Below are positions 831 to 58,795 of a stretch of 64,000 nt of DNA, one piece after another (the stretch's first letter is position 1; every line of letters starts with the position of its first letter). Position numbers and translations under genes: made by a program. The DNA comes from Squalus acanthias (taxonomy: Eukaryota): NCBI GenBank assembly GCA_030390025.1, contig CM059432.1, forward strand, positions 44,828,001 to 44,892,000, written 5' to 3'. The notes under the pieces are model-generated. The model did not search any database and was not told the origin of the DNA. It worked only from the letters and a program-made list of their open reading frames with translations.

Positions 831-879
831 ACAGGAGATATATATTCAAATATAATGTAGTAAGCTATTATATTCGAAA

Positions 880-1512: not shown

Positions 1513-1659
1513 TTCCGCTATTATATTCATTAGCTTGTCATTTCACATTCTGTTTGAGTCATGTGTTCATGTGAAATAAGTTTAGTGGTATGAGCCTTTC
1601 TTCATCTGAACTGTGGAAAATAAATAATTATTAGGGCTATGCTAATGAAACAATAGGCT

Positions 1660-1840
1660 ATTTCAACGCTTATTAAATGAGCCAGATTTTTGAACTACAG
1701 GGGAGTCAAGGGTTATGGGGATCAGGCAGATAAGTGAAGTTGAGGCCAAGATCAGATCAGCCATGATCTTATTGAATGGCGGAGCAGGCTCGAGGGGCTG
1801 AATGGTCTACGCCTGCTCCTATTTCTTATGTTCTTATGTT
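1660..1840 (+). mobile_element. CR1 LINE 3' end
   Basis: CR1 3' UTR (GATCAGCCATGATC..GGCGGAGCAGGCTCG) with a TTCTTATG repeat tail. Confidence 0.8.
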
Positions 1841-1938
1841 ATTATGTAGCCCAATGAGTAAGCTGCTCATTACATATGTATGATTATATTCATTACATTG
1901 CAGGACATGTGAGGAGAGGAGAAAGGTTGTGAGGGGTG

Positions 1939-3450
1939 CGGTAGCATTGTGGTTATGTTACTGGACTAATGATCCAGAGACATGAGTTCAAATCCCACCA
2001 TGGCAGCTGAAGAATTTAAATTCAGTTAATTAAATAAATCTGGAATTAAAAACCATCTGGTTCACTAATGTCCTTCAGGGAAGGAAATCTGCCCTCCTTA
2101 CCTGGTCTGGCCTATACATGACTCCAGACCCACAGCAATGTGGCTGACTCTTAACTGCCCTCTGAAATGGCCTAGTAAGCCACTCAGTTGTACCAAACCG
2201 TAACAGAAAACAATAATAAGAATAAAACCGGACGGACACGGCATCAACCTCGGCACCGTCTTCAGACACGACAAAGGCACACCCAGTCCAAACGACCCGG
2301 CAAAGCCCTCCTCACTAACATCTGAGGCCAAAATCGGGAGAGCTGTCCCACACACTAGTCAAGCAACAGCCTGACATAGTCATACTCACAGAATCATACC
2401 TTTCAGCCAATGTCCCAAACTCCTCCATCACCATCCCTGGGTATGTCCTATCCCACTGGCAGGACAGAACCACCAGAGGAGGTGGCACAGTGCTATACAG
2501 TCGGGAGGGAGTGGCCCTTGGAGTTCTTAACATTGACTCCAGACCTCATGAAGTCTCATGGCATCAAGTCAAACATGGGCAAGGAAAGCTCCTGCTGATT
2601 ACAACCAACCGGCACCCTCCCTCAGCTGATGAATCAGTACTCTTCCATGTTGAAGCACTGAGGGTAGCAAGGGCACAGAATGTACACTGGGTGGGGGACT
2701 TCAATGTCCATCACCAAGAGTGGCTCAGTAACACTACTACTGACCGAGCTAGCCGAGTCTTGAAGGACATAGCTGCCAGACTGGGCCTGTGGCAGGTGGT
2801 GAGAGAACCAACATGAGGGAAAAACCTACTTGACCTCGTCCTCACCAATCTTCCTGTCGCAGATGCATCTGTCCATGGGAGCATTGGTAGCAGTACTTGT
2901 GGAGACAAGTTCTGTCATCATACTGAGGACACCCTCCATCATGTCGTGTGGCACTACAACCGTGCTAAATGGGATAGATTCAGAACAGATCTCGCAGCTC
3001 AAAACTGGGCATTCATGAGGCGCTGTGGGTCATCAGCAGCAGCAGAATTGTATACAACCACAATCTTGTAGCCTCATGGCCCAGCATATCTCTCACTCTA
3101 CCATTAGCATCAAGCCAGGGGACCAAGCCTGGTTCACTGAGAGTGTAGAAGAGCATGCCAGGAGCAGCACCAGGCGTACCTAAAAACGAGGTGCCAACCT
3201 GGGGATGCTGCAACACAGGACTACATGCATGCTAAACAGCAGAAGCAGCACGCTATAGACAGAGCAGGTCAGGGGCTGGGTATTCTGCAGCGAGTGTCTC
3301 ACCACCTGACTCCCCAAAGCCTTTCCACATCTACAAGGCACAAGTCTATAACCTGTTGGACGGGGCGAGGGGTAATTCCGCACATCTTACACACCGCCCA
3401 AATCTGCGACCTCTACCACCTAGAAGGACAAGGGCAGAAGGTCCACATCA
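1939..3450 (+). mobile_element. tRNA-headed CR1-group LINE (family B), internally deleted copy
   Basis: A-box TAGCATTGTGG, CTGGA/TCCAG stem-loop and B-box GAGTTCAAATCC are followed by an AP-endonuclease frame (QQPDIVILTESYL, VGDFNVHH). RT is deleted near 3265. Collinear with 42449-45714. Confidence 0.85.
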
Positions 3451-3871: not shown

Positions 3872-5820
3872 GAGGTCCAGGATGTTGATCCAGCGACGAT
3901 GCAGGAACGGTGATAGATTTTCAAGTCAGGATGGTATGTGACTTGGAGGGGAACTTGGAGGTGATGGTGTTCCCAGGTGCCTGCTGTCCTTGTCCTTCTA
4001 GGTGGTAGAGGTCACGGGTTTGGGAGGTGCTGCCGAAGACGCCTTGGTGAGTTGCTGCAGTGCATCTTGTAGATGGTACACACTGCAGCCACGGTACGCC
4101 AGTGGTGGAGGGAGTGAAAGTTTAAGGTGGTGGATGGGGTGCCAATAAAGCCGACTGCTTTGTCTTGGATGCTGTCGAGCTTCTTGAGTGTTGTCGGAGC
4201 TGCACTCATTCAGGCAAGTGGAGAGTATTCCATCACACTCCTGACTTGTGCCTTGTAGATGGTGGAAAGGCTTTGGGGAGTCAGGAGGTGAGACACTCAC
4301 TGCAGAATACCTAGCCTCTGACCTGCTCTTGTTGCCACAGTATTTATGTGGCTGGTCCAGTCAAGTTTCTGTCAATGGCGACCCCCCAGGATGTTGATGA
4401 TGGGGAATTTGGCGATGGTAATACCATTAAATGTCAAGGGGCGGTTGTTAGGTTCTCTTTTTTTGGAGATGTTCATTGCCTGGCACTTGTGTGGCGCAAA
4501 TGTTACTTGCCACTTATCAGCCCAAGCCAGAATGTTGTCCAGGTCTTGCTGCATCCGGGCACGGACTGTTTCATTATCTGAAGAGTTGCGAATGCAACTG
4601 AACACTGCAATTATCAGTGAACATCCCCACTTCTGACCTTATGATGGAGGGAAGGCCATTGATGAAGCAGCTGAAGATGGTTGGGCCGAGGACACTGCCC
4701 TGATGAACTCCTGCAGCGATGTCCTGGGACTCCAACAACCATAATCTTGTTCCTTTGTGGTAGGTATCACTCCAGCCAGTGGAGGGTTTTCCCCCTGATT
4801 CCCATTGACTTCAATTTTACTAGGGCTCCTTTATGCCATACTCAGTCAAATGCTGCTTTGATGTCAAGAGCAGTCACTCTCACCTCACCTCTGGAATTCA
4901 GCTCTTTTGTCCATGTTTGGACCAAGGCTTTAGTGAGGTCTGGAGCTAAGTAGTCCTGGCGGAACCCAAACTAAGCATTGGTGAGCAGGTTATTGGTGAG
5001 TAAGTGCCACTTGATAGCACTGCTGATGACACCTTCCATCACTTTGCTGATGATTGAGTGTAGACTGATGGGGCGGTAATTGGCCGGGTTGGATTTGTCC
5101 TGCTTTTTGTGGACAGGACATACCTGGGCAGTTTTCCACATTGTCGGGTAGATGCCAGTGTTGTAGCTGTACTGGAACAGCTTGGGTAGAGGCGCGGCTA
5201 GTTCTGGAGCACAAATCTTCAGCACTACAGCTGGAATGTTGTAGAGGCCCATAATCTTTGCTGTATCCAGTGCGCTCAGCCGTTTCTTGATATCACATGG
5301 AGTGAATCGAATTTGCTTCTGTGGTGGTGGGGACCTCAGAAGGAGGCCGGTATTGATCATCCACTCGACACTTCTGGCTGAAGATGATTGCAAACGCTTC
5401 AGCCTTGTCTTTTGCACTCACGTGCTGGGCTCTGCCATCATTGAGGATGGGGATGTTCATGGAGCCTCCTCCTCCTGTTAGTTGTTTAATTGTCCACCAC
5501 CATTCACGACTGGATGTGGCAGGACTGCAGAGCTTTGATCTGATCCAGTGGTTGTGGGATTGCTTAGCTTTGTCTATAGCATGCTGCTTCTGCTGTTTAG
5601 CATGTATGTTGTCCTGTGCTGTAGCTTCACCAGGTTGGCACCTCATTTTTAGGTATGCCTAGTGCTGCTCCTGGCATGCTCTTCTACACTCCTCATTGAA
5701 CCAGGGTTGATACCCTGGCTTGATGGTAATGGTAAAGTGAGGGATATGTTGAGCAATGAGGTTACAGATTGTGGTGGATTGCAATTCTGTTGCTGCTGAT
5801 GGCCCACAGCGCCTCATGGT
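3872..5820 (-). mobile_element. CR1-group LINE family B, RT-region fragment
   Basis: NYRPISL, ALDIKAAFD and WQVTFAPHKC motifs; near-identical to 42600-44570. Confidence 0.9.
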
Positions 5821-6601
5821 GGATGGTGGAAAGGCTTTCAGGAGCTCAGGGTAGGTTATCAGAAAAATGGTTTAATTTCAAAATGCAAAATAACCCACAG
5901 GACTAAAACAAATTGTTTTTCTTAATTATTGTAAGGCCATATGCTATTCAGGGCTGCTATCTATGCTCCAACTCCATATAGGGTTATGCTCAGCGATTCC
6001 CTTTCAGCCCAGTTACGATAATAGGCCAGAACTTTATAACTGTTGAATAAATGTAGCAACTGCTGTGTATCATTATTCCTCAAGCATGATACAAAATGTG
6101 AATACAAGACTGATGACCAGATCTACAGGTTTGCAGTGACTGAATAGGGCAGACTTGCCTCTTGTAGCATTTGGGCATGAAGGAATCCCTTGGGCGGAAC
6201 GCATGAAGGGAAATCGGACATGGAGACTCGCATGCATGCAATGGATTCTGCCTGATTTTCCATTCATTAATTAAAATGGATATGGGCATGTGAATCTCCC
6301 TGCTTCATTTTACTCTCAGCGCTGCAGCCAATCTTGTTTTTATGATTGCGCACAATTAGATTAATATCTGCCCTGATAAATCAAATTCTATTTTTACTCC
6401 ATGGATTTTTCGTGATATTTTGGTGATTGCATTCCAATTTATTCCAATGTTTTTTGTGAAAACCAAAACCAGTGACCCTATTGATGATCATTTTACCAGG
6501 GCTGGAACCTTTGAGTGGCTTTTCCCAGCTGAGACCATACACTGTTGTTTTAAAACAAAATCTTTGGCCTCGATATTAACTCTCCCATGCCTTGTGGGAA
6601 A

Positions 6602-30100: not shown

Positions 30101-31680
30101 CGCTGCCTGATTACCTTGAACTTTTCTAAGCGCCCTGCTATAACATCTTTAATAATAGCTTCTAACATCTTCTCTATGACAGATGTTAAGCTAACTGGCC
30201 TGTAGTTTCCTGCTTTCTGTCTCCCTCCCTATTTGAATAAAGGAGTTACATTCACTATTTTCCAATCTAATGGAACCTTCCCTGAATCTAGGGAATTTTG
30301 GAAAATTAAAACTGACGTATCAACTATCTCACTAGCCACTTTTAAGACCCCAGGATGAAGTCCATCAGGACCCAGGGACTTGTCAGCCCGCAGCTCCAAC
30401 AATTTGCTCAGTACTACTTCCCTGGTGATTGTAATTTTCTTGAGTTCCTCGCTCCCTTCCATTTCCTGATTTACAGCTATTTCTGGGATGTTACTTGTAT
30501 CCTCTGTAGTGAAGACCGATGCAAAATACCTGTTCAATTCAACTGCCATCTCCTTATTTTCCATTATTAATTCCCCAGACTCACTTTTCATAGGACCAAC
30601 GCTCACTTTGTTAACTCTTTTCTTTTTTAAATATCTGTAGGAACTCTTACTATCTGTTTTTATATTTCTAGCTAGCTTTCTTTCGTACTCTAATTTTTCT
30701 CTCCTTATTAATCTTTTAGTCATTCTTTGCTGTTTTTTATATTCTGTCCAATCTTCTGACCTGCCACCCATCTTTGCACAATTATATGCTTTTTCTTTAA
30801 GTTTGATACTATCTTTAAACTTTTTTAGTTAACCACGGATGGTGGGTCCTCCCCTTGGAATTTTTCTTTCTCGTTGGAATGTATATTTTCTGTGTATTCT
30901 GAAAAATCCCTTAAAATGTCTGCCACTGCAACTCTATTGACCTATCCCTTAACCTAATTTGCCAGTTCACTTTAGCTAGCTCTGCTTTCATGCCCTCATA
31001 ATTGCTGTTATTTAAGTTTAAAATACTAGTCTTGGACCCACTCTTCTCTCCCTCAAACTGAATGTAAAATTCAATCATATTATGATCGCTGCTACCTAGG
31101 GGCGCCTTCACTATGAGGCCATTAATTAATCCTATCTTGTTGCACAATACCAGGTCTAGTATAGCCTGCTCTCTGGTTGGCTCCAGAACGTGCTGTTCTA
31201 AGAAACTATCCCGAAAACATTCTATGAACTCCTCATCTAGGCTACCTTTGCCCATCTGATTTTTCCAGTCTATATGTAGATTAAAATCCCCCATGATTAT
31301 TGCCATACCTTTCTGACAAGCTCCCATTATTTGTTCCTTCATCCTCCATCCTACCATGTGGTTACTGTTAGGGGGCCTGTACACCACTCCCACAAGTGAC
31401 TTCTTGCCTTTATCATTTCTCATCTCTACCCAAACTGCTTCTACATCCTGGTTTCCTGAACTTAGGTCATCCCTCTCTATTGTGCTAATACTATCATTAA
31501 TTAACAGAGCCACCCCTCCACCTTTTCCTAGCTTCCTGTACTTCCTAAATGTCATGTACCCTTCAATATTCAGGTCCCAATCTATGTCATCCTGCAGCCA
31601 TGTTTCTGTAATGGCTATCAGATCATATTTATTTATTTCTATTTGCGCTATCAGTTCATCTGTTTTGTTTCAAATGCTAC
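27164..31680 (-). mobile_element. CR1 LINE ORF2 (EN + RT), 5'-truncated, split by a solo LTR
   Basis: IMGDFN, SDHN, QHGFVKGKSCLTNL, GVPQGSVLGP, KFADD, NFFSQRV..WNSLP; tail at about 27164. Confidence 0.95.
27804..29447 (-). mobile_element. Solo LTR, 1644 bp, 4-bp TSD CATT
   Basis: TGTA...TACA termini; CATT at 27800-27803 and 29448-29451; removing it restores the CR1 sequence; minus-strand AATAAA at 28051-28056. Confidence 0.85.
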
Positions 31681-34064
31681 GTGCACAGAGAAATGCTTAG
31701 TGCAATGGCTGGCCTGCCAGACAGCCTCAGTCACTGTCAAGGAGCATGGAGGAGTCCAGCTCCAACATAACATGGGACTCAGTGCGGAGCTTGGAGCCCA
31801 TGATTTCCAGAATGGAAGTGATGGGCAACTCCATTAGAGCACTTGTTGACCCAACCGTGATGCTGGGTGTAATGGGCGATGTTGCAGCTTCCATTGAAAC
31901 ACGCAGAAGCGACCCAACGTCTGAGTGCTACAGTAGAAGCTCAGACTGCTCTCATGCAGGCTCAGCTTGCTGCCACGCAAGCTCAGACTGCTGTCATCGT
32001 GGCTGGGTTTACAAGTGTGGAAAGGGGCTTGCAGCATGTCACAGCAGTCCAGCAATCTGTCCGGCAACAGATGGCTAAGAATGCTGAGGCACCGCCCTGA
32101 GGGAGTGACATTGGCTCCGTGGAGCAAGAACCTGCTGTCCTCTCTCAGGATGACAGCATTCGTATTCACCAGTGCCCTTGCAGTTTCCTGTCAGGCAGCC
32201 AGCCCAGACTGCTGCCACCCATGCTGAGGTGGTGCAGTCTACCCCCGGGCCTTCTCGGCCCAGAGCTGCTCGGGATTGTCCTGCAAGGCCATCTGCAGTC
32301 TCCACCATCTCCTTGGTGAAGCGGAGCCTCTGAATACACTGCTCGTGGCTTAAGCGCAGATAGCAGAAGTGCTCTCGGAAGACCCTAGGTGGGTAAAGCC
32401 TCCTGTTGAGACCTGCTGCCCTTTCTCCTCCTCTCTCTGTGAGCTACTTGTCCTCTTCTTCTTTGCTGCCTCTGCTCCATCAGCCTGTCATGCTGCAGCG
32501 CAAGGGGGGACTGCAGGTAGAGCCCCCACGACTGGGAGCAAGTGGTCTGAGCAGAACCCTTGAAGTCAGAAGCAAGGCCTTCTCCACTTGCAGCACCACT
32601 CTCTGTCACCTCACCAACTTTAAGTAACTCTAGAAATCTCCAGACAGTTCCACAAACTTACACAGAGCCAGTAGAAATCAAAAAGCAAGTTAACTGAAAG
32701 TTGTTGTTGATCCCTTTAATTGTTCATCTTTAGAAGAGGGCGTTGATTGGAATGGTAATGTCCAAAATGGCAGGTCATGTGTCAAATTGGCGTTGGACGT
32801 TGATTGATGTCACAATCTGCATCATTTGAAGTCTACTGCCACATGCAGGCCACGGCCGCGCTGCTGACCTGCCCAAAATGGCAAAGGCCGGGGCCTGTGC
32901 CGGAAGTGGCTGGAAGTGAGGTTGCTGCCATTTTTTGCCGGCCTTTAATGCTGGCACTAAGGTGCCAAATTTCGCGGCCTGAATGTTGCAGGGAACTCAA
33001 CAAACTCAACAAAACAATTACAATCTCAATTTGATATTTGTGATGCTTAATCACAAGAGAATAAATGACAATTCTTAAGAAAACAAATTAGTGATACAAA
33101 TTATTATTTAGTGTTACGTCAAAAATCATCTGATAATTATCATACATTATAGAGTATAACTAATTCTTGGCTGATGATGAGGGTTCTTCTAATCAGTTAA
33201 TCTGTTTTTGCTGTCAAAACTTACTCCTGTCATGCTGTTACAAGAGGACTACCTCCCTTAATGGAAAAACCTCTAGATTGATTTAAAGGGTTTCAAATGC
33301 AAGTTTTTAAGTAGGTCTAAATGTGTGTGGGTAACTATCTGCAGATTTATCATGAAGATAAAGGCCAATTGATTAGCAGTTAAAACTTCAATCAGCAACA
33401 GGCGTCAATTTGCAAAAGAAAATGCTTTGCCAATAAAAAATAATCAGTCAGCAACACTAAAAGTATTTCAATAAAGGCCATCTTTTGAATGAAGATGGAA
33501 TGGTGTCCCCTAATCCAAGACTGTAGAGATGTTGCTCTAAAGTTTTGCCAGGCTTGAAGAGAATGACTCCATTTCTGGACAATGAGACCGAGAGCGTCTC
33601 AAGTCAATTGGCTTGCTCTGGTGACAAATTAGTGACTTCAATTATAAAGTTGGGATTCAACTGCTTCTTAATCAATATGAAGCATAGACTATCTAAACGT
33701 TATTAAACTGCTGTATAAAAGCCACCTTCATTCTAACCTTACAGGCTAAAAATTCGATAGCCCCCTAAAATGGGTGCGGGGATCGCGATGCACGATTAAC
33801 CCACGCCCGTTCAAAGTAATGCAGGCAGCACACAAACTTTGAGCTGCCTGCTAATTTAAATGATGGTGGTGTGCAGGCCAGCACTAAATGGGCTGCTGAG
33901 TGACTGCACGCTCAGCAGGAGGCCCAAGTTTGTGCTAGCACCAATTAAAGCTAGCCTGCACTTCTTAAAGCCAGTCTGTACCTCTTAATGGGGAGATGCA
34001 GCTTGCCGGGAGCAGGTGCTGGAAATCGTTGTCGAGGACTGTGTGACCTACAGGAAGAGTGAGG

Positions 34065-35860
34065 ATGGTGCAACATGACACAGAGAGGGCTCCCAGATTT
34101 TCTGATGCAGCACTCGAGGCCCTGGTGCAGGAGGTGGGTAGGAGGAGAGGTGTCCTCTCTCCACAGGGGGCGAGGAGGACTTCCAGTCAGACGCTGAGAA
34201 GGGAATGGGAGCAGATAGCCATTGCTGTCAATGCCAGCAGTGTAGCCCCGAGGACCTGGATGCAGTGCAGGAAGAAGTTTAATAACATTACACGAGTGGT
34301 CAAGGCCAGTAATTTCATCTTCAAATGCCATACCCCAAAAACTGCACCACTAGCCTCACACACAGCTCAATTCACCACACCCCCATTACTCACCTACCAA
34401 AAATCTCTATCAATCATGACGCATACCTCACATTCATATGCTCCATCTCACCCTCACACACTTACCATTGCTGCAAGCCTCACACCCACATCTCACAGCT
34501 TGCTCACACTGCCAGCTATTCAACCACGACAGCCACATCAGCCAAACACAGTGAACCACACTCACTGACACACTTCTCTTTCTCTTGCAGGAAAAGGTGG
34601 CGCACAATCATAGGTAGCAGCAGCTAACCGGAGGGGGACAGGCACACCTTCATATCCTGATCCTGCTCGAGGATACAGTGCTTGACATAATTGGAGTGGT
34701 TGTGACTGAAGGTCGCGGCCAGCGCCAGTTCTGAAACCATTGAAGATGACGGTATGCTCATACCTAATTCTCCTTCTCACATCCCACTTCCCCTCATCCC
34801 ACAATCATTTCTGACTTACAAGCCGCAAATGGTGTAAGCATTCAACTCTTGTCTCCGACCCCCCCCCGCACCCCGCACCCACAATCCCCCTCACCACAAC
34901 CCTATTCTTGTGCCTTTCTCATTTCAGAGACCCAAGAAATCCAACCTGGCCAGGCAGTGGTGCAAGAGGAAGAGGGAGAGGAGAGTGATGATGAAGAAGA
35001 AACACCATCACTTGATCTGATAGTCGCAGCCATCAGCTCAGATACTGGCACTAAGCGGAGTTTAGAGGGTAGCTTAGAGTCGTCACCTGTACGTGGTGAG
35101 TCACCGGGCACGAGTGGGCTGCAGCCAGGTCAGGGGGAAAGGATAGCGTGGGTGAGGTTGCACATGAGTTCTGCTGCACACGACTTAGATGAGGACTGCG
35201 ATAGGGGCGCCCTACAGAAGACAATGAAATGCTTGGTGCATTGGCAGGCCTGCCAGAAAGCCTGAAGGCAGTGTCAAGGAGCATGGAGGAGGCCAGCTCC
35301 AACATTGCACAGGGCTGTGATCAGAGGTTGGAGCTCATCCTTTCCAGCGTGGAAGGGGTGGGCAGATCCATTAGCTCACTTGTGGACCCAACCATGATGC
35401 AGCGTCTGATGGCCGATGTCTCAGCTTCCATTACAACACAAGCAGAAGCCACTCAATGTCTGAGTGCTGTAATGGAAGCTCAGACAGAAGTCATGCAGGC
35501 TCAGCTTGCTGCCATGCAAGTACAGACTGCTGCCATCATGGCTGTGTTTACCAGTGTTGAAAGAGGCTTGCAGGGTATCATGGCAGTCCAGCAATCTGTC
35601 CTCCAGCAGATTACTAGAATTGCTGAGATGCTGCCCTGAGGGAGAGGCAGTGGCTCTGTGGAGCACAAACCTGGTGTCCTCTCTCAGGAGGACAGCATTT
35701 GTCCTCCCACCACTGCCATTCAGCCTTGCTGTTGCCTGTCAGCCAGCCTGCCCAGACTGCTGCTGCCCATGTCGAGGTGGTGCAGTCCAAAGCCGGGCCT
35801 ACTGTGCCCAGAGCTGCTCGAGGTTGTCCTGCAAGGCCGTCTGCAGTCAACCCCACTGAA
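34065..35860 (+). pseudogene. Harbinger Myb/SANT-like gene of H3 (three exons)
   Basis: RAPRFSDAALEALVQEV..WEQIA..RTWMQCRKKFNNI; acceptors at 34589 and 34927, donor at 34751. Confidence 0.85.
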
Positions 35861-36021: not shown

Positions 36022-37775
36022 GAACATAAGGACATAAGAAATAGGAGCATGAGCAGGCCATTCGGCCCCTCGAGCCTGCTCCGCCATTTAATGAGATCAT
36101 GGTGGATCCGATTTTGGCCTCAACTCCACTTTCCTGTCTGTTCCCCATAACCCTGGACTCCCCTGTTGCTCAAAAATCTGCCTATCTCAGCCTTGAATAT
36201 ATTGAATGACTCAGCTTCCACAGCTCTCTGGGGTAAAGAATTCCAAAGATTCACGACCCTCTGAGTGAAGAAATTCCTTCTTATCTCCGTCTTAAATGGG
36301 TGACCCCTTATTCTGAGACTATGCCCCCTCGTTCTAGATTCCCCCACGAGGGGAAACATCCTCTCAGCATCTACCCTGTCCAACCCCCTCAGAATCTTAT
36401 ATGTTTCAATAAGATCACCTCTCATTCTTCTAAACTCCAATGAGTATAGGCCCAACCTGCTCAACCTTTCCTCATAAGACAAGCATTCGATCCCAGTAAT
36501 CAACCTAGTGAACCTTCTCTGAACTGCCTCCAATGCAAGTATATCCCTCCTTAAATAAGGGGACCAAAACTGTACACAGTACTCTAGGTGTGGTCTCACC
36601 AGCGCCCTGTACAGTTGTAGCAAGACTTCCCTACTTTCATACTCTATCCCCCTTGAAATAAAGGCTAACATTCCATTTGCCTTCCTAATTACTTGCTGCA
36701 CCTGCATGTTAACTTTTTGTGTTTCATGTATGAGGACACCCAGATCCCTCTGTACCGCCGCATTCTGTAGTCTTTCTCCATTTAAATAATATTTTTCTTT
36801 TCTATTCTTCCTACCAAAGTGGATAACTTCACATTTTCCTGCATTATACTCCCTCTGCCAAATTTTTGCCCACTCACTTAACCTATCTATATCCCTTTGC
36901 AGACTCTTTATGTCCTCCTCACAACTTGCTTTCCCACCTATCTTTGTATCGTCTGCAAATTTGGCTACAATACACTTTCTTTCTTCATCCAAGTCATTAA
37001 TATAGATTGAAAATAGTTGAGGCCCCAGCACTGATCCCTGTGGCACCCCACTAGTTACAGATTGCCATCCTGAAAATGACCCATTTATCTCTGTTTTCTG
37101 GTAGTTAGCCAATCCTCTATCCAATCTAATATATTACCCCCAACACCATGAGCTCTTATCTTATGCAGTAACCTTTTATGTGGCACTTTGTCGAATACCT
37201 TTTGGAAATCCAAATACACTACATCTACTGGTTCCCCTTTATCCACACTGCTCATTACCACCTCTAATAGATTTGTCAAACACGATTTCCCTTTCATAAA
37301 ACCATGTTGACTCTGTTTGATTGCATTATGATTTTCTAAATGCCCTGCTACTACTTTCTCAATAATGGATTCGAGCCTTTTGCCAATGACAAATGTTAGG
37401 CTACTGGCCTATAGTTTCCTGCTTTCTGTCTCCCTCCTTTTTTGAATAAGGATGTTACATTTGCAGTTTTCCAATCCACTGGGACTTTTCCAGATTCACG
37501 GGAATTTTGGAAGATTACAACCAATGCATCCACTATCTCTGTAGCTACTTTTAAGACCCTAGGATGCAGGCGATCAGGTCATGGGGACTTGTTAGCCTTT
37601 AGACCCATTAGTTCGCCTAGCACTTTTTCTCTAGTGATAGAAATTGTTTTAAGTTCCTCCCTCCTTTTTGCCCCTTGATTTTTTACTATTACTGAGATGT
37701 TTTTAGTGTCCTCTACTGTGAAGACAGATACAAAATATTTGTTCAATGCCTCTGCCATTTCCTTGTTTCCCATTA
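36022..37775 (-). mobile_element. CR1 LINE 3' portion (RT)
   Basis: 334-aa ORF 36120-37124 with GVPQGSVLGP and KFADD; CR1 tail at about 36022. Confidence 0.95.
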
Positions 37776-37929: not shown

Positions 37930-40040
37930 CTTTGTCCTTCTAGGTGGTAGAGGTTGCATGTTTCGGAGGTGCTGTTGAAGAAGCCTTGGCGAGATGCTGC
38001 AGTGCATCTTGTAGATGGTACACACTGCGGCCATGGTACGCTGGTGGTGGAGGGAGTGAATGTTTAAGGTCGTGGATGGGGTGCCAATCAAGTAGGCTGC
38101 TTTGTCCTGGATGGTGTCAAGCTTCTTGGGTGTTGTTGGAGCTGCACTCATCCAGGCAAATGGAGAGTATTCCATCACACTCCTGACTTGCACCTTGTAG
38201 ATGGTGGAAGGACTTTGGGGAGTCAGGAGGCGAGGCACTCGCCACAGTTTATGTGGCTGGTCCGGTTAAGTTTCTGGTCAATGGTGACCCCTAGGATGTT
38301 GATGGTGGGGGATTCAGCGATGGTAATGCCATTAAATTTCAAGGGAAGGTGGCCAGATTCTCTTGTCGGAGATGGTGATTACCCTGCACGTTTGTGGTGA
38401 GAATGTTAATTGCCACTTATCAGCCCAAGCCAGGTCTAGCTGCAACAAATACAAAAGCAAAATACTGCGGATGCTGGCAATCTGAAATAAAAACAGAAAA
38501 TGCTGGAAATACTCAGCAGGTCAGGCAGCATCTGTGGAGAGAGAAACAGCATTAACGTTTCAGGTCGATGACCCTTCGTCATAACTGGAAAAAGTTGGAG
38601 ATGTAACAGATTTTTAAGCAAGTGTAGAGGCAGGGAGAGGGGGGAGGGGAGGAAAGAACAAAAGGGAAGGTCTGTGATAGGGCCGAAGGCAGGAGAGATT
38701 AAGATACAAGGGATGATGGTGCAAGACAAAAGGAGATGGTAATGGAACAAGTTAAGAAACAAAAGATGACTCTAGATGAAGTGTAAATGCCAGTGGCAGA
38801 ATGATCGACAGCTGCCATGTGAGAGAGAGAAAAAAAATAATGATGGGGCAGAGGTTATGGTCTGAAATTGTTGAACTCAATGTTGATTCTTGCTGCATGT
38901 GGGCACAAACTGCTTCATTATCTGAGGAGTTGCGAATGGAACTGAACACTGTGCAATCATCACCGAACGTCCCCACTTCTGACCTTATGATGGAGGGAAG
39001 GTCATTGAAGAAGCAGCTGAAGATGGTTGGACATAGGACACTGCCCTTAGGAACTCCTGCAGTGCTGTCCTTGGGGGCTAGATGATTGGCCTCCAACAAC
39101 CACAACCATCTTCCTTTGTGCTAGGTATGACCCCAGCCAGTGGGTAATTTTCCCCCTGATTCCCACTGACTTCAATTTTACTGGGGCTCCTTCATGCCAC
39201 TCTCGGTCAAATGCTGCCTTGATGTCAAGGGCAGTCACTCTCACTTCACCTCTGGAATTCAGATCTTTTGTCCTTGTTTGGACCAAGGCTGTAATGAGGT
39301 CGGGAGCTGAGTGGTCCTGGTGGAACCCAAACTGAGCATTGGTGAGCAGGTTATTTGTGAATAGGTCCCACATAATAGCACTGTCAACGGCACCTTCCAT
39401 CACTTTGCTGATGATTTAGAGTAGACTGATGCGGTGGTAATTGGCCAGATTGGATTTGTCCTGCTTTTTTTGTGGACAGAACATACCTGGGTAATTTTCC
39501 ACTTTGTCAGGTAGATGCCAGTGTTGTAGCTGTACTAGAACAGCTTGGCTAGAGGCGTGGCTAATCCTGGAGCACAAGGATGCAGCAAGACAGCCGGGAT
39601 ACTGTCGGGGCCCATAGCTTTTGCTGTATCCAATGCGCTCAGCCATTTCTTGATATCACTTGGAGTGAATCGAATTGGCTGAAGACTGGCTTCTGTGATG
39701 GTGGGGACGTCAGGAGGAGGCCGAGATGGATCATCCACTTGGCACTTCTGGCTGAAGATGGTTGGAAATGTTTCAGCCTTGTCTTTTGTACTCATGTAGC
39801 TGATCTCTACCATCATTGAGGATGAAGATGTTCATGGAGACTCCTCTTCCCGTTATGTTGTTTATTTGTCCACCACCATTCATGACTGGATGTTGTAGGA
39901 CTGCAGAACTTTGATCTGATGCATTGGTTGTGGGATCGCTTACCTCTGTCTATAGCATGCTGCTTCTGCTGTTTAGTATGCATGTAGTCCTGTGTTGTAG
40001 CTTCACCAGGTTGGCACCTCCTTTTTAGGTACGCCTGGCA
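37930..40040 (-). mobile_element. CR1-group LINE family B fragment interrupted by a PLE
   Basis: Homologous to 42720-44420; ALDIKAAFD, FFNDLP. Confidence 0.9.
38443..38885 (-). mobile_element. PLE family A 3' fragment with mutated hammerhead (ATGACGA core, 38551-38587)
   Basis: Homologous to 880-1320. Confidence 0.8.
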
Positions 40041-42441
40041 CTGAGTGCAGCGAGCACAGAGTGAACAACTGGGAGTTTAGTAAGTGTGGGAGTATTAAGG
40101 GTTAATCTCTTTTAAAATCTAGTGTTAATTGCTAGTAGCTCTTAAGTAAGATCAACTGTTTAATTTAAAATTTAAACTTTAAATTTTTAAGTTTCTTCAG
40201 GCATAAGCAGAGACAAACAAGCAAGCTCTCCTGCTGGAGAGCTGCTGTAGTTAGTTAATTAGCTAACTAGATTAAACTGGTTCCTGAAATAGTAGCAGAG
40301 CAATGCTGACTCATCTGAGTTACAAACGGTATAAACACAGGGGCCTGTGAATGCAGTGAGCACAGAGTGAACAACTGGGAGTTTGGTAAGTGTGGGAGTT
40401 TGGTGAAGTGGGGGAAGGAGGTGCTTGCTTTTCCTAACTTCTCCCGCAGAGCGGCGGCGGACCTGAGCGGGAACAGACCGAGGCCCGAGAGCGGGGATAA
40501 AAGCAGCAACAGACCTGCATCAACAAGAGAAAATGGCAATGTGACATCACAGGTAAGGCAGGTAAGTGATTGGTAGTGACTGTGGGCTAAGTTTTAAGTT
40601 AACATATAACTAAATTTTAAAAACTAAACTTAATTTAATTAATTTAATAAACTAAACAAGGTAAATAATTTGATTAACACTGAACTAATTAATTAAATAA
40701 GTAAAATAATGGGAGAACAGGAGATGTGTTGCTGCTGCAATATGTGGGAGCTTGTGGACAGTTTTGTCCAGGGCGAGTACATCTGCAGTAAGTGTCTGCG
40801 GCTTGAGGAACTTTGGCTTCGCATTGAGAAGCTGGAGTCCGAGCTACAGACATTGCGAGACATCAGGGAGGGAGAAAGTTACCTGACCTTTTGCTCCAGG
40901 AGGCAGCCACACCCCTTAGATTAAATACTTTTGAATTGACACGTGGTCAGGGACAGGAGGGTGTGACTGCGAGTGAGGCAGGTATGGGGATCCAGGAGGT
41001 AGTTTTGCAGGAGCCTCAGTCCCTGCACTTGTCCAATAGATTCAAGATTCTTGCAACCCTTGTGGACAAGTGCGGGGACTGCGGGGAGGATGTGCAAACT
41101 GACCATGGCACCGTGGTACAGGAAGCCGTTCAAGTGGGGGGAGTAAAAAGGAAGGTGGTTGTAGTAGGCAACAGTAAAGTTAGGGGGATAGACACTGTTC
41201 TCTGCAGCCAGGAGCGTGAGTCCCGAAGGCTATGTTGCCTACCAGGGTAAAGGACATCCCCTTCGGGCTGGAGAAGAACTTGGAGTGGGAGGGGGAGGAT
41301 CCAGTTGTCGTGTCCACGTAGGTACCAACGACATAGGTCGGGCAAAGAAAGAGGTTCTACTGAGAGAGTTTGAGAAGCTAGGGACTAAATTAAAAAACAG
41401 AACCACAAAGGTCATAATCTCTGGATTATTACCGGAGCCACGAACAAATTGGCATAGGGTCAATAGGATCAGGGAGATGAATGCGTAGCTCAAAGATTGG
41501 TGTGGGAGAAGTGGGTTTCGATTCGTGGGACACTGGCACCAGTACTGGGGAAAGAGAGAGCTGTTCCGTTGGGACGGACTACACCTGAACCATGCTGGGA
41601 CCATAGTTCTAGCGAATCGAATAACTAGGGAGGTAGATAGGGCTTTAAACTAAATAAGGTGAGGGAACGTCCCGGTGGAGTGAATTCTAGAATGCTAAGA
41701 GAAAAGACAAGGAAGCAGTGCAGGAGAGTGATTGGGGTAAGGATAACCAGATTGTGTCAAGAAGGGACAGAGCGTACAAACAAAGGAGAGCACTAACAAA
41801 TAGGGTCCGGGTAAGAAAAAATGGTAATAAGACAAATAGGGCCATAGGACAAAAAAATGTTAAGATGTCTAAAAATGTTAAAAAGACAAATCTAAAGGCA
41901 CTGTATCTGAATGCACGAAGTATTCGTAATAAGGTAGACGAATTAACCGCAAATAGATGTAAATGGATACGATATAATTGTGATTACGGAGACATGGCTG
42001 CAGGGTGACCAAGGCTGGGAGCTGAATATCCAAGGATATTTGATATTTAGGAAGGACAGGCAAAAAGGAAAAGGAGATGGGATGGCGTTGTTAGTAAAGG
42101 ATGAAATCAGAGCAATAGTGAGAAAGGATATTGGCTCAGAAATTAAAGATGTAGAATCAGTCTGGGTGGAGCTAAGAAGCACCAAGGGGCAGAAAACATT
42201 GGTGGGAGTTGTCTATCGGCCTCCAAAAAGTAGTGGTACTGTAGGGGATGGCATCAAACATGAAATTAGAGATGCATGTAACAAGGGTACTACAATAATC
42301 ATGGGTGACTTTAATCTACACATAGACTGGCCAAACCAAATTAGCAATAATATTGTGGAGGATGAATTGCTGGAGTGTGTACGAGATGGTTTTTTAGACC
42401 AGTACGTTGAGGAGCCAACTAGGGAACAGGCTATTCTTTAT
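40040..42441 (+). mobile_element. CR1 LINE 5' portion: 5' UTR, ORF1 (Zn-finger/leucine zipper + SGNH esterase) and ORF2 endonuclease
   Basis: CCCCNMW..YICSKCLRL; VVVGNS..RG, CCLPG, HVGTND, DGLHLN; then LKALYLNARSIRNK, ITETWL, IMGDFN. Confidence 0.92.
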
Positions 42442-42448
42442 TGAATTT

Positions 42449-45400
42449 AAAAAAAATTCGTTTATGGGATCAGGGTGTCGTTGGCAAGGCCAGCATTTAT
42501 TGCCCATCCCTAGTTGCCCTTGAGAAGGTGGTGGTGAGCCGCCTTCTTGAACCGCTGCAGTCCGTGTGGTGATGGTACTTCCACAGTGCTGTTAGGTAGG
42601 GAGTTCCAGGATTTTGACCCAGCGACGATGAAGGATCGGCGATATACTTCTAAGTCAGGATGGTGTGTGACTTGGAGGGGAACTTGGAGGTGGTGGTGCT
42701 CCCATGCTCCTGCTGCCCTTGTCCTTCAAGGTGGAAGAGGTCGCGGGTTTGGGAGGTGCTGCCGAAGAAGCCTTGGCGAGTTGCTGCAGTGCATCTTGTA
42801 GATGGTACACACTGCAGCCACGGTACACCGGTGGTGGAGGGAGTGAATGTTTAAGGTGTTGGATGGGGTGCCAATCAAATGGGCTGCGTTGTCCTGGATG
42901 GTGTCGAGCTTCTTGAGTGTTGTTGGAGCTGCACTCATCCAGGCAAGTGGAGAGTATTCCATCACACTCCTTACTTGTGCCTTGTAGATGGTGGAAATGC
43001 TTTGGGGAGTCAGGAGGTGAGACACTCGCTGCAGAATACCTAGCCTCTGACCTGCTCTTGTTGCCACAGTATTTATGTGGCTGGTCCAGTTAAGTTTCTG
43101 GTTAATGGTGACCCCCAGGATGTTGATAGTGGGGGATTCGGCGATGGTAATGCCATTGAATGTCAAGGGGAGGTGGTTAGACTCTCGCTTGTTGGAGATA
43201 GTCATTGCCTGGCACTTCTGTGGTGCGAATGTTACCTGCCACTTATCAGCCCAAGCCTGAACGTCATCCAAGTCTTGTTGCATGCAGGCATGGACTGCTT
43301 TATTATCTGTGGAGTTGCGAATGGCGCTGAACACTGTGCAGTCATTAGCGAACATCCCCATTTCTGACCTTATGTTGGAGGGAAGGTCATTGATGAAGCA
43401 GCTGAAGATGGTTGGGCCTAGGACACTGCCCTGAGGAACTCCTACAGCGATGTCCTGGGGCTGTGATGATTGACCTTCAACCACCACAACCATCTTCCTT
43501 TGTGCTAGGTATGACTCCAGCCAGTGGAGTGTTTTCCCCATGATTCCCGTTGACTTCAGTTTTACTAGGGCTCCTTGATGCCAGACTCAGTCAAATGCTG
43601 CCTTGATGTCAAGGGCAGTCACTCTCACCTCACCTCTTGAATTCAGCTCCTTTGTCCATGTTTGGACAAAGGCTGTAATGAGGTCGGGAGCCGAGTGGTC
43701 TTGTCGGAACCCAAACTGGGCATCAGTGAGCAGGTTATTGGTGAGTAAGTGCCGCTTGATAGCACTGTCGATGACACCTTCCATCACTTTGCTGATGATT
43801 GAGAGTAGACTGATGGGGCGGTAATTGGTCGAGTTGGATTTGTCCTGCTTTTTGTGGACAGGACATACCTGGGCAGTTTTCCACATTGTCGGATAGATGC
43901 CAGTTTTGTAGCTGTTTTGGAACAGCTTGGCTAGAGGCGTGGCTAGTTCTGCAGCACAAGTCTTCTGCACGATAGCCGGGATGTTGTCGGGGCCCATAGC
44001 CTTTGCTGTATCCAGTGCGCTCAGCCGTTTCTTGATATCATGTGGAGAAAATCGAATTGGCTGAAGACTGGCTTCTGTGATGGTGGGGACCTCGGGAGTA
44101 GGCCGATATGGATCATCCACTCGGCACTTCTGGCTGAAGTTGGTTGCAAACGCTTCAGCCTTGTCTTTTGCACTCATGTGCTGGGCTCCACCATCATTGA
44201 GGATGGGGATATTCTTCGAGCCTCCTCCTCCCGTTAGTTGTTTAATGGTCCACCACCATTCACGACTGGATGTGGCAGGACTGCAGAGCTTTGATCTGAT
44301 CCGTTGATTGTGGGATCGCTTAGCCCTGTCTATAGCATGCTGCTTTTGCTTTTTAGCATGCATGTAGTCCTGTGTTGCAGCTTCCCCAGGTTGGCACCGC
44401 ATTTTTAGGTACGCCTGGTGCTGCTCCTGGCATGCTCTTCTACACTCGTTGTTGAACAGGGTTGGTCCCCTGTCTTGGTGGTAATGGTAGAGTGAGGGAT
44501 ATGCCGGGCCATGAGGTTACAGATTGTGGTGAAATACAATTCTGCTGCTGCTGATGGCCCACAGCACCTCATGGATGCCCAGTTTGGAGCTGCCAGATCT
44601 GTTCTGAATCTATCCCATTTAGCACGGTGGTAGTGCCACACAACACGATGGAGGGTGTTCTCAGTGTGAAGACGGGACTTCGTCTCCACAATGACTGTGC
44701 AGTGTTCACTGCTGCCAATGCTGTCATGGACAGATGCATCTGCGACAGGTAGATTGGTGAGGACGAGGTCAAGTAGGTTTTTCCCTCGTGTTGGTTCTCA
44801 CCACCTGTAGCAGGCCCAGACTGGCAGTTATGTCCTTCAGGACTCGGCGAGCTCGGTTAGTAGTGATGCTACCGAACCACTCTTGGTGATGGACATTGAA
44901 GTCCCCCACCCAGAGTACATTCTGTGCCAATGCTACCTGCAGTGCTCCTTCCAAGTGATGTTCAACATGGAGGAGTACTGATTCATCAGCTGAGGGAGGG
45001 CAGTTGGTGGTAAACAGCAAGAGGTTTCCTTGCCCATGTTTCACCTTATTCCATGAGACTTCATGGGGTCTGAATTTAATGTTGAAGACTCTCGGCCACT
45101 CCCTCCCAACTGTATGCCACTGTGCTGCCACCTCTGGTGGTTCTGTCCTGCCGGTGGGACAGGACATTCCCAGAGATGGTGATGGAGGAGTTTGGAACAT
45201 TGGCTGAAAGGTATGATTCTGTGAGAATGAGTATGTCAGGCTGTTGCTTGATCAGTCTGTGGGACAGCTCTCCCAATTTTGGCACAAATCCCCAGATGTT
45301 CGTGAGGAGGACTTTGCAGGGTCGACAGGGCTGGGCATGCCTTTGCCATGTCCGAAATTGGTGCCTTGGTCGATGCCGGGTGATCGGTCCAGTTTTATTC

Positions 45401-45714
45401 TTGTTATTTTTCCGAGCGGTTTGAGTTGGATTGCTGGATCATTTCAGAGGCAACCACATTGCTGTTAATCTGGAGTCACATATAGGCCAGACTAGGTAAG
45501 GGCAGCAGATTTCCTTCCCTAAAAGACATTAGTGAACCAAATGGGTTCTTACGACAATCTGATAGTTTCATGGTCACCATTACTGATATTAGCTTTTTAT
45601 TCCAGATTTATTGAATTGAATTTAAGTTTCACAGCTTCCATTTGAAGTCATGTCTCTGGATTGTTAGTTCAGGCCTCTGGATTAGTTGTCCAGCAACATA
45701 ACCACATGCTACCG
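42449..45714 (-). mobile_element. Full-length tRNA-headed CR1-group LINE (family B): single EN-RT frame, no ORF1
   Basis: Head CGGTAGCATGTGG at 45714; EN starts at about 45320 (CKVLLTNIWG, PDILILTESYL, VGDFN); RT motifs ALDIKAAFD, GVPQGSVLGP, FANDC; stop at 42510-42512; AATAAA at 42496-42501; T8 at 42449-42456. Several frameshifts and stops. Confidence 0.9.
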
Positions 45715-56989: not shown

Positions 56990-58795
56990 ATGTTTTATAA
57001 GTACATTAAGAGCAAGAGGATAACTAAAGAAAGAGTAGGGCCTATTAGAGACCATAAAGGTAATCTGTGTGTGGAGGTGGAAGACATGGGTATGGTTCTT
57101 AATGAATACTTTGCGTCTGTTTTCACAAAAGAGAGGGGCGATGCAGACATTGCAATCAGGGAGGAGGAGTGTGAAATATTAGATGAAATAAACATAGTGA
57201 GAGAGGAAGTATTAAAGGGCTTAGCAGCTTTGAAAGTGGATAAATCCCCAGGCCTGGATGAAATGTATCCCAGGTTGTTAAGAGAAGCAAAAGAGGAAAT
57301 AGCAGAGGATCTGACCATCATTTTCCAATTCTCTCTGGCTACAGGTATGGTACTGGAGGACTGCTAACATTGTACCTTTGTTTAAAAAAGGAGAAAGGGT
57401 TAGACCGAGTAATTACAGGCCAGTCAGCCTAACCTCGGTGGTGGGAAAATTATTGGAAAAAGTTCTGAGGGACAGGATAATTCTTCATTTAGAAAGACAC
57501 GAATTAATCAAGGACAGTCAGCATGGATTTGTTAAGGGAAGATTGTGTCTGACTAACTTGCTTGAATTTTTTGAGGAGGTAACAAGGAGGGTCAATGAGG
57601 GTAGTGCATTTGATGTAGTGTATATGGATTTTAGCAAGGCTTTTGATAAGGTCCCACATGGCAGACTGGTCACGAAAGTGAAAGCCCATGGGATCCAGGG
57701 CAAAGTGGCAAGTTGGATCCAAAATTGGCTCAGAGGCAGGAAGCAAAGGGTAATGGTTGATGGGTGTTTTTGTGACTGGAAGGCTGTTTCCAGTGGGGTT
57801 CCGCAGGGCTCAGTACTAGGTCCCTTGCTTTTTGTGGTATATATCAATGATTTAGACTTGAATGTAGGGGGTATGATTAAGAAGTTTGCAGATGATATTA
57901 AAACCGTCTGTGTGGTTGATAACGAAGAAGAAAGCTGTAGACCGCAAGAAGATATCAATGAACTGGTCAGGTGGGCAGAACAGTGGCAAATGGAATTCAA
58001 TCCAGAGAAATGTGAGGTAATGCATTTGGGGAGGGCTAACAAGGCAAGGGAATACACATTAAATGGTAGGACAGTGAGAAGTGTAGAGGGACAAAGGGAC
58101 CTTGGAGTGCAGGTCCACAGATCCCTGAAGGCAGCAGGCCAAGTAGATAAGATGGTTAAGAATGCATACGGAATACTTGCCTTTATTAGCCGAGGCATAG
58201 AACACAAGAGCAGGGAGGTTATGCTTGAACTGTATAAAACACTAGTTAGGCCACAGCTAGAGTACTGCGTGCAGTTCTGGTCACCACATTACAGGAAAGA
58301 TGTGATTGCACAAGAGAGGGTACAGAGGAGATTCACGAGGATGTTGCCTGGACTGGAGAATTTTAGCTACGAGGAAAGATTGGATAGGCTGGGTTTGTTT
58401 TCTTTGGAACAGAGGAGGCTGAGCGGAGACCTTATTGAGGTGTATAAAATTATGAGGAGCCTAGATAGAGTGGATAGGAAGCAGCTATTTCCCTTAGCAG
58501 AGGGGTCAACAACCAGGGGGCATAGATTTAAAGTAATTGGTAGGAGGTTTAGAGGGGTAATGAGGGGAAATTTCTTCATGGGGATCTGGAGCTCACTGCC
58601 TGAAAGGGTGGTAGAGGCAGAAACCCTCACCACATTTAAAAAGTGCTTGGATGTGCACTTGAAGTGCCGTAACCTACAGGGCTACAGACCAAGAGCTGGG
58701 AAGTGGGATTAGGCTGGATAGCTCTTTGTCGGCCGGCGCGGACACGATGGGCCGAAATGGCCTCCTTCTGTGCTGTAAATTTCTGTGATTCTATG
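56990..58795 (+). mobile_element. CR1 LINE 3' portion with a 444-aa uninterrupted RT/C-terminal frame
   Basis: ORF 57378-58712: NYRPVSL, QHGF, DFSKAFD, GVPQGSVLGP, KFADD; tail TTCTGTGATTCTATG. Confidence 0.95.

What the first reader, a model, noticed from the sequence alone, without database searches (positions are those of the whole stretch)
42449..45714. Candidate RNA polymerase III-transcribed protein-coding LINE: tRNA-like head fused to an ORF1-less EN-RT frame
Seen: two independent insertions (1939 on +, 45714 on -) start with the same CGGTAGCA(T)TGTGGTTATGTT..CTGGA..TCCAG head. The 1939 copy has a clear A-box and B-box (GAGTTCAAATCC); the B-box is degraded in this copy. Both continue through the same ~350-400-bp leader into an AP-endonuclease frame and a CR1-group RT. 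The 45714 junction falls inside Harbinger transposase coding sequence (..SYLN|), so the head moved with the element. There is no room for ORF1, and I see no in-frame ATG near the EN start. Established: CR1/L2-group LINEs normally use Pol II 5' UTR promoters and carry ORF1, whereas tRNA heads define non-coding SINEs. Inference: this is a SINE-LINE chimera that mobilised as a 3.3-kb unit and may have been autonomous under a Pol III promoter, which would need cap-independent or non-AUG translation. I cannot check whether it is already catalogued.
Basis: partly seen in the sequence, partly recalled or inferred. Interest (0 to 1): 0.9.

Follow-up and report, generated by a model that had tools for sequence, protein, structure and literature searches.

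The report
LINE family with a SINE-type tRNA head
A very abundant 3.3-kb jumping gene in this vertebrate genome starts with the tRNA-like promoter normally found only on short non-coding SINEs and avoids that polymerase's stop signal along its whole length, so it may be a protein-coding element copied by RNA polymerase III.

Summary
Both window copies share a tRNA-like head, a ~330-nt leader and an endonuclease-reverse transcriptase frame.

- **Family size and 5' end:** first-look candidates number 117,872 to 301,591. Of 29 copies chosen by RT similarity, 12 begin at the head. Fifteen are 5'-truncated at scattered points, two were unclassified, and none extends upstream.
- **Frame:** about 962 codons, no ORF1 and no in-frame ATG.
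- **Short partner:** a dispersed ~460-nt element equals element nt 1-323 joined to 3123-3256.
- **T runs:** no conserved run of four T lies on the sense strand before the 3' end. Family ORFs carry 0.12 such runs per kb, against 5.26 per kb in other LINE ORFs of the same DNA. This fits RNA polymerase III read-through.
- **Limits:** codon-preserving shuffles alone do not make the absence significant. No transcript data and no fully open copy were obtained.

Ten literature searches found no such LINE. The scan's notes hold no look-alike. Repbase and Dfam could not be searched. Verdict: a real, probably undescribed LINE variant; Pol III transcription is plausible but unproven.

The parts
45631..45714 (-). 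tRNA-like head of copy B. Box A remnant at 45702-45711, decayed box B at 40-49 of 456xx (45640-45649).
   Evidence: Mapped from the better copy L063 through the 58-copy alignment. Motifs TAGCGTAGTGG and GAGTTCAAATCC are in L063 and in the 43-copy majority. Rfam tRNA model 14.5 bits, below threshold.
45424..45630 (-). Non-coding leader. It is shared with the short SINE-like relatives and ends at an in-frame TAA.
   Evidence: In four laid runs contig depth peaks at 45446-45566.
42510..45423 (-). Single EN-RT reading frame of about 962 codons in good copies. In this copy it is broken by frameshifts and an in-frame TGA. Endonuclease about 44702-45300, reverse transcriptase about 43104-43850.
   Evidence: ORF pieces, Pfam hits, coordinates.
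42446..42509 (-). 54-nt 3' UTR and tail. AATAAA lies within 42493-42505, the terminal CCCATAAACGAAT at 42456-42468, then the T run 42449-42456 and AAA 42446-42448.
   Evidence: 43 aligned 3' ends all finish with this motif followed by T(0-10) and a short A run. Coordinates.
1939..3448 (+). Copy A: head (short form), leader and endonuclease up to element nt ~1386, then two small 3' fragments. It is internally deleted and lacks the tail.
3872..5819 (-). A further 5'-truncated copy of the same family (element nt 1134-3099).
   Evidence: blastn of the L063 element against the window, 89% identity.
37932..40038 (-). Two further fragments of the family (element nt 2443-2981 and 1291-2427).

Best explanation
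This is one copy of a very abundant non-LTR retrotransposon (LINE) family of about 3.26 kb. Its RNA begins with a tRNA-derived SINE-type head: GGGAA, box A at about +9 and box B at about +72. A ~330-nt leader follows, then a single ~962-codon endonuclease-reverse transcriptase frame, a 54-nt 3' UTR and a short T/A tail.

Shown:
- Head, leader, frame and tail are reverse-transcribed as one unit.
- The head is the family's canonical 5' end.
- A dispersed ~460-nt SINE-like family is the same element with the frame deleted.

Inferred:
- The internal box A and box B promoter recruits TFIIIC and RNA polymerase III, as on the short partner.
- Because the sense strand holds no T4 terminator until the 3' end, Pol III can run through the whole element to the terminal T run.
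- The resulting uncapped RNA serves as the retrotransposition template.
- Protein, if made from it, must start at a non-AUG codon or by internal entry. Alternatively protein is supplied in trans.
For: Structure:
- 32 of 40 scored matches to head plus leader start at query nt 1-3.
- All 29 non-self loci pass from leader into the endonuclease. 19 of 29 run unbroken to the end of the DNA held.
- Of 29 RT-selected copies, 12 start at element nt 1-4. Fifteen are truncated between nt 111 and 1177, two were unclassified, and none goes further upstream.
- Truncation points inside the head and leader (nt 15, 28, 43, 111, 140) show one continuous template.

Promoter geometry:
- The boxes are intact in the 43-copy majority and the 5' end lies 8 nt before box A.

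Short partner:
- 40 of 40 scored hits, from 1,840 candidates, span the nt 323/3123 junction at 86-100% identity on many contigs.
- 7 of the 40 best head matches belong to such short copies, judged by comparing the coordinates.

Terminators:
- In 58 copies the only place where at least 30% carry T4 is nt 3244-3247.
- T4 runs occur at 0.14 per kb against 1.28 per kb expected from base frequency alone. A4 runs occur at 5.05 per kb, which equals their expectation.
- 117 family ORFs (102,459 nt) hold 12 T4 runs. Ten ORFs of other LINE families in the same DNA (8,169 nt) hold 43.
- Six other LINE fragments in the window hold 4-12 T4 runs each.
- 38% of 3' ends carry T4 or longer just before the A run.
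Against: - No transcript evidence of any kind was obtained.
- With amino acids and the family's own codon usage kept, shuffles expect only 1.5-2.0 T4 runs in the frame, so zero is not significant (P 0.10-0.18). TT and TTT are also depleted, so a general composition or codon bias could explain part of the effect.
- The control ORFs are few (10), more T-rich (0.246 against 0.196) and older.
- Pol III products of 3 kb, and their export and translation, have little precedent.
- The start of the frame is CpG-rich and could be part of a Pol II promoter.
- An AATAAA lies about 45 nt before the 3' end.
- No fully open frame was found among the 253 copies scored.
- Each search scores only the best 40-128 candidates, so the samples are small and biased towards the query's nearest relatives.
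- The RT-selected set is also enriched for copies with a frameshift near nt 1250.
Confidence: 0.5

Rival explanations
1. The LINE captured the 5' part of a SINE by template switching, and that part now serves only as a 5' UTR and internal Pol II promoter. The full-length RNA is an ordinary capped Pol II transcript.
For: - LINE internal Pol II promoters also fix the start at nt 1 (established knowledge, recalled).
- A CpG-rich stretch lies at nt ~335-445.
- AATAAA lies near the 3' end and the copies carry short A tails.
- The lack of T4 is not significant against codon-preserving shuffles.
Against: - The T-run depletion is strand-specific and grows with run length. A, C and G runs sit at expectation.
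- Other LINE families in the same DNA carry about 40 times more T4 per kb.
- The same head drives a short non-coding family.
Confidence: 0.27
2. The head-bearing 3.3-kb copies are LINE-sized passengers. They are made by Pol III and copied in trans through the shared tail. The protein comes from a rarer, conventionally promoted master that was not sampled.
For: - Proteins of L2-type LINEs recognise the 3' tail in trans (PMC4176376, abstract from the search listing only).
- No fully open frame was seen.
- Seven copies, four of them head-bearing, share a frameshifting 13-nt deletion.
Against: - No alternative 5' end was seen in any copy.
- Near-open frames of 819-931 aa occur in this family, and the 819-aa one sits in a full-length head-bearing copy.
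- The group sharing the 13-nt deletion is barely more alike than other copies, 95.8% against 94.8%, so the deletion may be recurrent.
Confidence: 0.15
3. The tRNA-like head is an RNA-processing signal (RNase P or RNase Z type) that trims read-through host transcripts to a precise 5' end. It would work as the self-cleaving ribozymes do at the 5' ends of some other LINE clades.
For: - Self-cleaving ribozymes at LINE 5' ends are described for six clades (PMC5786205, discussion read).
- The 5' ends here are precise.
Against: - The head does not fold as a cloverleaf. Its minimum-energy fold has z = -0.74, and the tRNA model scores 14.5 bits.
- The element keeps 5 nt (GGGAA) upstream of the tRNA-like part.
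- This reading does not explain the T-run depletion.
Confidence: 0.05
4. Chance nesting or site-specific insertion: a separate SINE and a separate LINE merely lie next to each other.
For: Nested repeats are common in this window.
Against: - The same junction occurs in all 29 non-self loci.
- 5' truncations fall inside the head and leader.
- The SINE-like 'tail' contains the last ~68 nt of the LINE frame.
Confidence: 0.01

Closest known systems
SacSINE1/LmeSINE1 (tRNA-headed DeuSINEs of sharks, chimaera and coelacanth) with their partner LINE, called L2-2_CM (PMC5499810, passages read) or 'CR1-4_DR-like' (PMC3747384, table read)
   Same: - A tRNA-type head with box A and box B, a conserved body, and a 3' tail shared with a LINE of the CR1/L2 group.
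- The short ~460-nt relatives found here have this build.
- From memory only, the leader and tail resemble the Deu domain.
   Different: - In those papers only the tail is shared between SINE and LINE. Here the LINE also carries the head and body at its own 5' end.
- I could not compare sequences. No reference was available, and the supplements of PMC5499810 and PMC3531059 could not be read.
ORF1-less L2-clade LINEs such as zebrafish ZfL2-2 (PMC3880073, passages read)
   Same: A single EN-RT frame with no ORF1. The 3' end is shared with a SINE partner.
   Different: - Nothing in the passages read mentions a tRNA-type head on those elements.
- The family here lacks an in-frame ATG and lacks T4 runs.
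Bipartite non-autonomous LINEs as sources of SINE bodies (Kojima 2018, PMC5786205; abstract and discussion read)
   Same: A short element made of the 5' and 3' ends of a LINE. The ~460-nt family here is nt 1-323 plus 3123-3256 of the long element.
   Different: - That paper found such 5' contributions only for the RTE and Vingi clades.
- It assumes the small-RNA head is added after the deletion, with LINEs made by Pol II and SINEs by Pol III. Here the full-length coding element already has the head.
R2 and other LINEs whose RNA is not an ordinary capped Pol II transcript (5' self-cleaving ribozymes; PMC5786205 discussion; further detail recalled)
   Same: A precedent that a LINE can depend on another polymerase's transcript and start translation without a cap or a clear AUG.
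   Different: Those use co-transcription with rRNA and a ribozyme. Here the candidate device is an internal Pol III promoter.

Membership tests
LINE (non-LTR retrotransposon with APE-type endonuclease) | Endonuclease and reverse transcriptase domains in one frame | tested here: met
   Exo_endo_phos at aa 41-235 and RVT_1 at aa 520-765 of an 819-aa open frame.
LINE (non-LTR retrotransposon with APE-type endonuclease) | Common 3' end with variable 5' truncation | tested here: met
   43 aligned 3' ends share the same terminal motif. 5' ends are scattered, with a pile-up at nt 1.
LINE (non-LTR retrotransposon with APE-type endonuclease) | Target-site duplications | tested here: inconclusive
   No clear duplication in 10 full-length copies; the longest shared strings were 0-8 nt.
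tRNA-derived SINE (SINE2) | Box A and box B of a type-2 Pol III promoter at the 5' end | tested here: met
   TAGCGTAGTGG and GAGTTCAAATCC, 52 nt apart.
tRNA-derived SINE (SINE2) | Recognisable tRNA homology | tested here: inconclusive
   Rfam tRNA model 14.5 bits against a gathering score of 29, E 5.6. ARAGORN found none.
tRNA-derived SINE (SINE2) | Short and non-coding | tested here: not met
   The element is 3.26 kb with a ~962-codon frame. Only the ~460-nt derivative meets this.
RNA polymerase III type-2 transcription unit | No run of four or more T inside the unit; a T run at its end | tested here: met
   No conserved T4 in nt 1-3243. T4 or longer at nt 3244-3247 in 38% of 26 copies.
RNA polymerase III type-2 transcription unit | Actual transcription by Pol III | not testable with these tools
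   No RNA holder was on record among the sequencing runs. Needs wet-lab work.
CR1 clade versus L2 clade | Placement of the RT in a reference phylogeny | not tested
   No reference LINE sequences were available. Other LINE RTs in the window are 25-35% identical.
CR1 clade versus L2 clade | ORF1 upstream of the EN-RT frame | tested here: not met
   Only ~300 nt precede the frame and hold no long ORF. L2 elements may lack ORF1 (PMC3880073).
DeuSINE superfamily | Homology of the body to the Deu domain | not testable with these tools
   No Deu consensus could be obtained. Motif searches in papers and in two supplements found nothing. The resemblance is recalled only.

The most novel reading that the evidence does not exclude
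A protein-coding, self-sufficient LINE is transcribed end to end by RNA polymerase III from a tRNA-derived internal promoter. It has been purged of Pol III terminators and is translated from an uncapped RNA at a non-AUG start. Its internal-deletion products are the tRNA-headed SINEs of the same genome. In that case a conserved SINE body (possibly the Deu domain) is simply the 5' leader plus 3' tail of such a LINE.
Probability: 0.3. Interest if true: 0.93.

Novelty: new variant of a known kind. Interest (0 to 1): 0.8.

Why it matters
- **Division of labour.** The field divides labour cleanly: coding LINEs are made by Pol II and non-coding SINEs by Pol III. Kojima 2018 writes that SINEs cannot encode a protein and that signals for the two polymerases may conflict. 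A family with over 100,000 first-look candidates that joins a SINE head to a full EN-RT frame, and has lost Pol III stop signals, challenges that split.
- **Origin of SINEs.** It offers a direct route from LINE to SINE by a single internal deletion. It also gives a testable origin for a conserved SINE body.
- **Translation.** It would give a natural case for studying translation of Pol III transcripts.
- **Annotation.** Repeat annotators may split such elements into a 'SINE' and a '5'-truncated LINE'.

Tried and rejected
- **Expression:** no RNA holder was listed. The four runs laid are contigs of about 100-200 nt whose RNA label is a guess. They give no start, strand or level.
- **tRNA detection:** ARAGORN and Rfam at gathering threshold found nothing in the window.
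- **RNA folding:** the head (z -0.74) and the 3' tail (z -0.80) fold no better than shuffles.
- **Programmed -1 frameshift:** I considered one from the out-of-frame ATG, whose 46-codon frame overlaps the endonuclease start. By eye I saw no slippery heptamer in the majority sequence. I dropped the idea as untested.
- **Site-specific nesting of a LINE in a SINE:** rejected.
- **13-nt deletion group as a clear non-autonomous subfamily:** the signal is weak.
- **Deu-domain identity:** motif searches in full texts and in the supplements of PMC4824008 and PMC5804259 found nothing. The supplements of PMC5499810 and PMC3531059 could not be read.
- **Polyadenylated Pol III SINE transcripts:** the paper I recalled was not held.
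- **Protein atlas:** gave only generic EN-RT clusters.
- **Earlier notes of this scan:** no look-alike sequence and nothing on this family.
- **Harbinger claim:** no Pfam support.
Full report
**What is at the coordinates**

On the minus strand, 45714 to about 42446 is one decayed copy of a 3.26-kb retroelement. A second copy starts at 1939 on the plus strand. The two align from CGGTAGCA onward at 88% mean column identity over 1,514 columns, and their upstream flanks are unrelated.

Copy B's frame is in pieces, with frameshifts and an in-frame TGA. The pieces carry endonuclease and reverse-transcriptase domains. ARAGORN and Rfam at gathering threshold find no RNA gene in the window.

**The family**

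The window lies in a 3.7-Gb assembly.

- Head plus leader gave 9,370 first-look candidates. All 40 scored matched, 32 of them from query nt 1-3.
- blastn of the whole of copy B against the 29 non-self loci showed that every one passes from the leader into the endonuclease. Nineteen run unbroken to the end of the DNA held. Ten stop earlier or jump to the 3' part.
- An RT query gave 301,591 first-look candidates, of which 128 were scored. An N-terminal frame query gave 117,872, of which 125 were scored.
- Of the 29 RT-selected loci, 12 begin at element nt 1-4. Fifteen are 5'-truncated between nt 111 and 1177, two of them at contig ends. Two gave no long match. None continues upstream.
- This sample is conditioned on reaching nt ~1200. 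It is also enriched for copies with a frameshift near nt 1250, because the query carries one.
- Upstream flanks differ between copies except for a shared GGGAA. The true 5' end is therefore about 5 nt before CGGTAGC. No target-site duplications stood out.

**Anatomy, from the better copy L063 and a 43-copy majority of the first 730 nt**

- Head: box A TAGCGTAGTGG at about +9, box B GAGTTCAAATCC at about +72, 52 nt apart. Rfam's tRNA model aligns the head with D, anticodon and T arms and a 22-nt insertion, but at only 14.5 bits. The head does not fold as a cloverleaf.
- Leader: it runs to an in-frame TAA at nt 299-301.
- Frame: it is open from nt 302 to a stop at nt 3188-3190, about 962 codons. 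The endonuclease lies at aa 41-235 and the RT at aa 520-765.
- Start of the frame: the 37 codons before the endonuclease are arginine-rich and CpG-rich and contain no ATG. The nearest ATG is 83 nt upstream of the KVLLTN motif in 11 of 17 copies and out of frame in 15 of 17.
- 3' end: the 3' UTR is 54 nt and includes AATAAA. All 43 aligned 3' ends finish with CCCATAAACGAAT or a near variant, followed by 0-10 T and a short A run.
- Open frames: the longest seen were 931, 874, 864, 844 and 819 aa. None was complete. Copies are about 94-96% alike in nt 1290-1900.

**The short partner**

One of three head matches that I could still fetch is head plus leader (nt 1-323) joined directly to the last 135 nt (nt 3123-3256). 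That makes about 460 nt in all.

A 120-nt query across that junction gave 1,840 candidates, and all 40 scored span it. Ten lie on one region of contig C7 and eight on small contigs, at 94-100% identity. Twenty-two lie on many other contigs at 86-94%. By coordinates, 7 of the 40 best head matches are such short copies.

Contigs in runs of other organism labels join the leader (nt ~205-259) to the tail (nt ~3172-3192) at other points (table 5). The short 'tail' contains the last ~68 nt of the long element's frame. The short element is therefore a deletion derivative of the long one, or the two share both ends by recombination.

**Terminator census**

Vertebrate Pol III stops at runs of four or more T (established knowledge).

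- In 58 aligned copies, the only place where at least 30% carry T4 is nt 3244-3247, the very end.
- T4 runs occur at 0.14 per kb, all in single copies, against 1.28 per kb expected from base frequency alone.
- A4 runs occur at 5.05 per kb at about 15 conserved places. That equals their expectation.
- Depletion grows with run length. In one 2.46-kb frame there are 63 TT, 5 TTT and 0 TTTT, while A, C and G runs sit near expectation.
- Other LINE fragments of the window, whose RTs are 25-35% identical to this one, hold 4-12 T4 runs each.
- Over all DNA held, 117 family ORFs (102,459 nt; T 0.196) hold 12 T4 runs. Ten ORFs of other LINEs (8,169 nt; T 0.246) hold 43.

Against this, shuffling synonymous codons within the family's own usage predicts only 1.5-2.0 T4 runs per frame. 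Zero is then unremarkable, with P between 0.10 and 0.18 in five copies. The signal therefore sits in the codon usage itself (TTC far above TTT) and in amino-acid choice. That may be the result of selection against T runs, or an unrelated bias.

**Reading**

The structure is secure. This is a LINE whose normal 5' end is a SINE-type tRNA head, with a SINE-like deletion partner. The most economical mechanism is Pol III transcription of the whole unit from the internal promoter, ending at the terminal T run. I put this at about one in two.

The chief rival is a captured SINE 5' part acting as a Pol II promoter. A variant keeps Pol III for the template but draws the protein from elsewhere. An RNA-processing role for the head is weakly supported. 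Nesting is excluded.

**Comparison with what is known**

- ORF1-less L2 LINEs are known (PMC3880073, passages).
- Shark, chimaera and coelacanth SacSINE1/LmeSINE1 have a tRNA head, a Deu body and a tail shared with L2-2_CM. Only tail homology is reported (PMC5499810, outline and passages). Their partner is listed as 'CR1-4_DR-like' in PMC3747384 (table).
- The vertebrate Deu domain is given as 330 bp (PMC4824008, passages).
- Kojima 2018 found LINE 5' parts in SINE bodies only for RTE and Vingi, and treats LINEs as Pol II units and SINEs as Pol III units (PMC5786205, abstract and discussion).
- That the leader here is the Deu domain is my recollection and could not be tested.
- Ten full-text searches found no LINE with a tRNA head or Pol III transcription. 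Repbase and Dfam could not be consulted, and subscription journals are largely outside the library.

**Flanks**

The 5' flank ORF ending in SYLN has no Pfam hit. The 3' flank is the endonuclease of a different LINE on the plus strand, cut at 42441-42448. The Harbinger statement is therefore unconfirmed, but copy B did land in older repeats.

Noticed in passing
window 40828-42441 (+): A different LINE with an upstream ORF containing GTNDIGR and an endonuclease start. It is cut off by the insertion of copy B. From memory, GTNDI is the esterase-type ORF1 motif of CR1/L2 elements. Pfam gave no hit for the upstream ORFs.
   Followed up: partly
loci L032, L038, L040, L043, L044, L057, L060 (element nt ~1230-1243): Seven copies share an identical frameshifting 13-nt deletion, and four of them are full-length at the 5' end. 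This is either a trans-mobilised subfamily or a recurrent deletion between ACCAA repeats. The group is only 1% more alike than other copies.
   Followed up: partly
G000 contig C7, about 137.5-147.7 Mb: Ten short head-leader-tail copies at 94-100% identity cluster within about 10 Mb. This suggests segmental duplication or an array, not fresh retrotransposition.
   Followed up: no
window 34047-34565 (+): An ORF with a Myb/SANT-like DNA-binding domain (PF13873, E 1.3e-13).
   Followed up: no
element nt ~335-445 (window about 45280-45390, -): The first 37 codons of the frame are arginine-rich and hold about 14 CpG in 110 nt in the majority sequence. A 46-codon ATG-started frame overlaps them in the -1 frame.
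   Followed up: partly
window 45446-45566 (table 2): In contig sets of four differently labelled organisms, depth peaks on this part of the leader (element nt 149-269), far above the neighbouring endonuclease region. This is what a widely shared SINE body would give.
   Followed up: no
window 6554-8647 (+), 29623-31669 (-), 36123-37133 (-), 57315-58709 (+), 60252-60956 (-): Fragments of at least four other RT-bearing LINE families. I used them only as controls for T-run content.
   Followed up: partly
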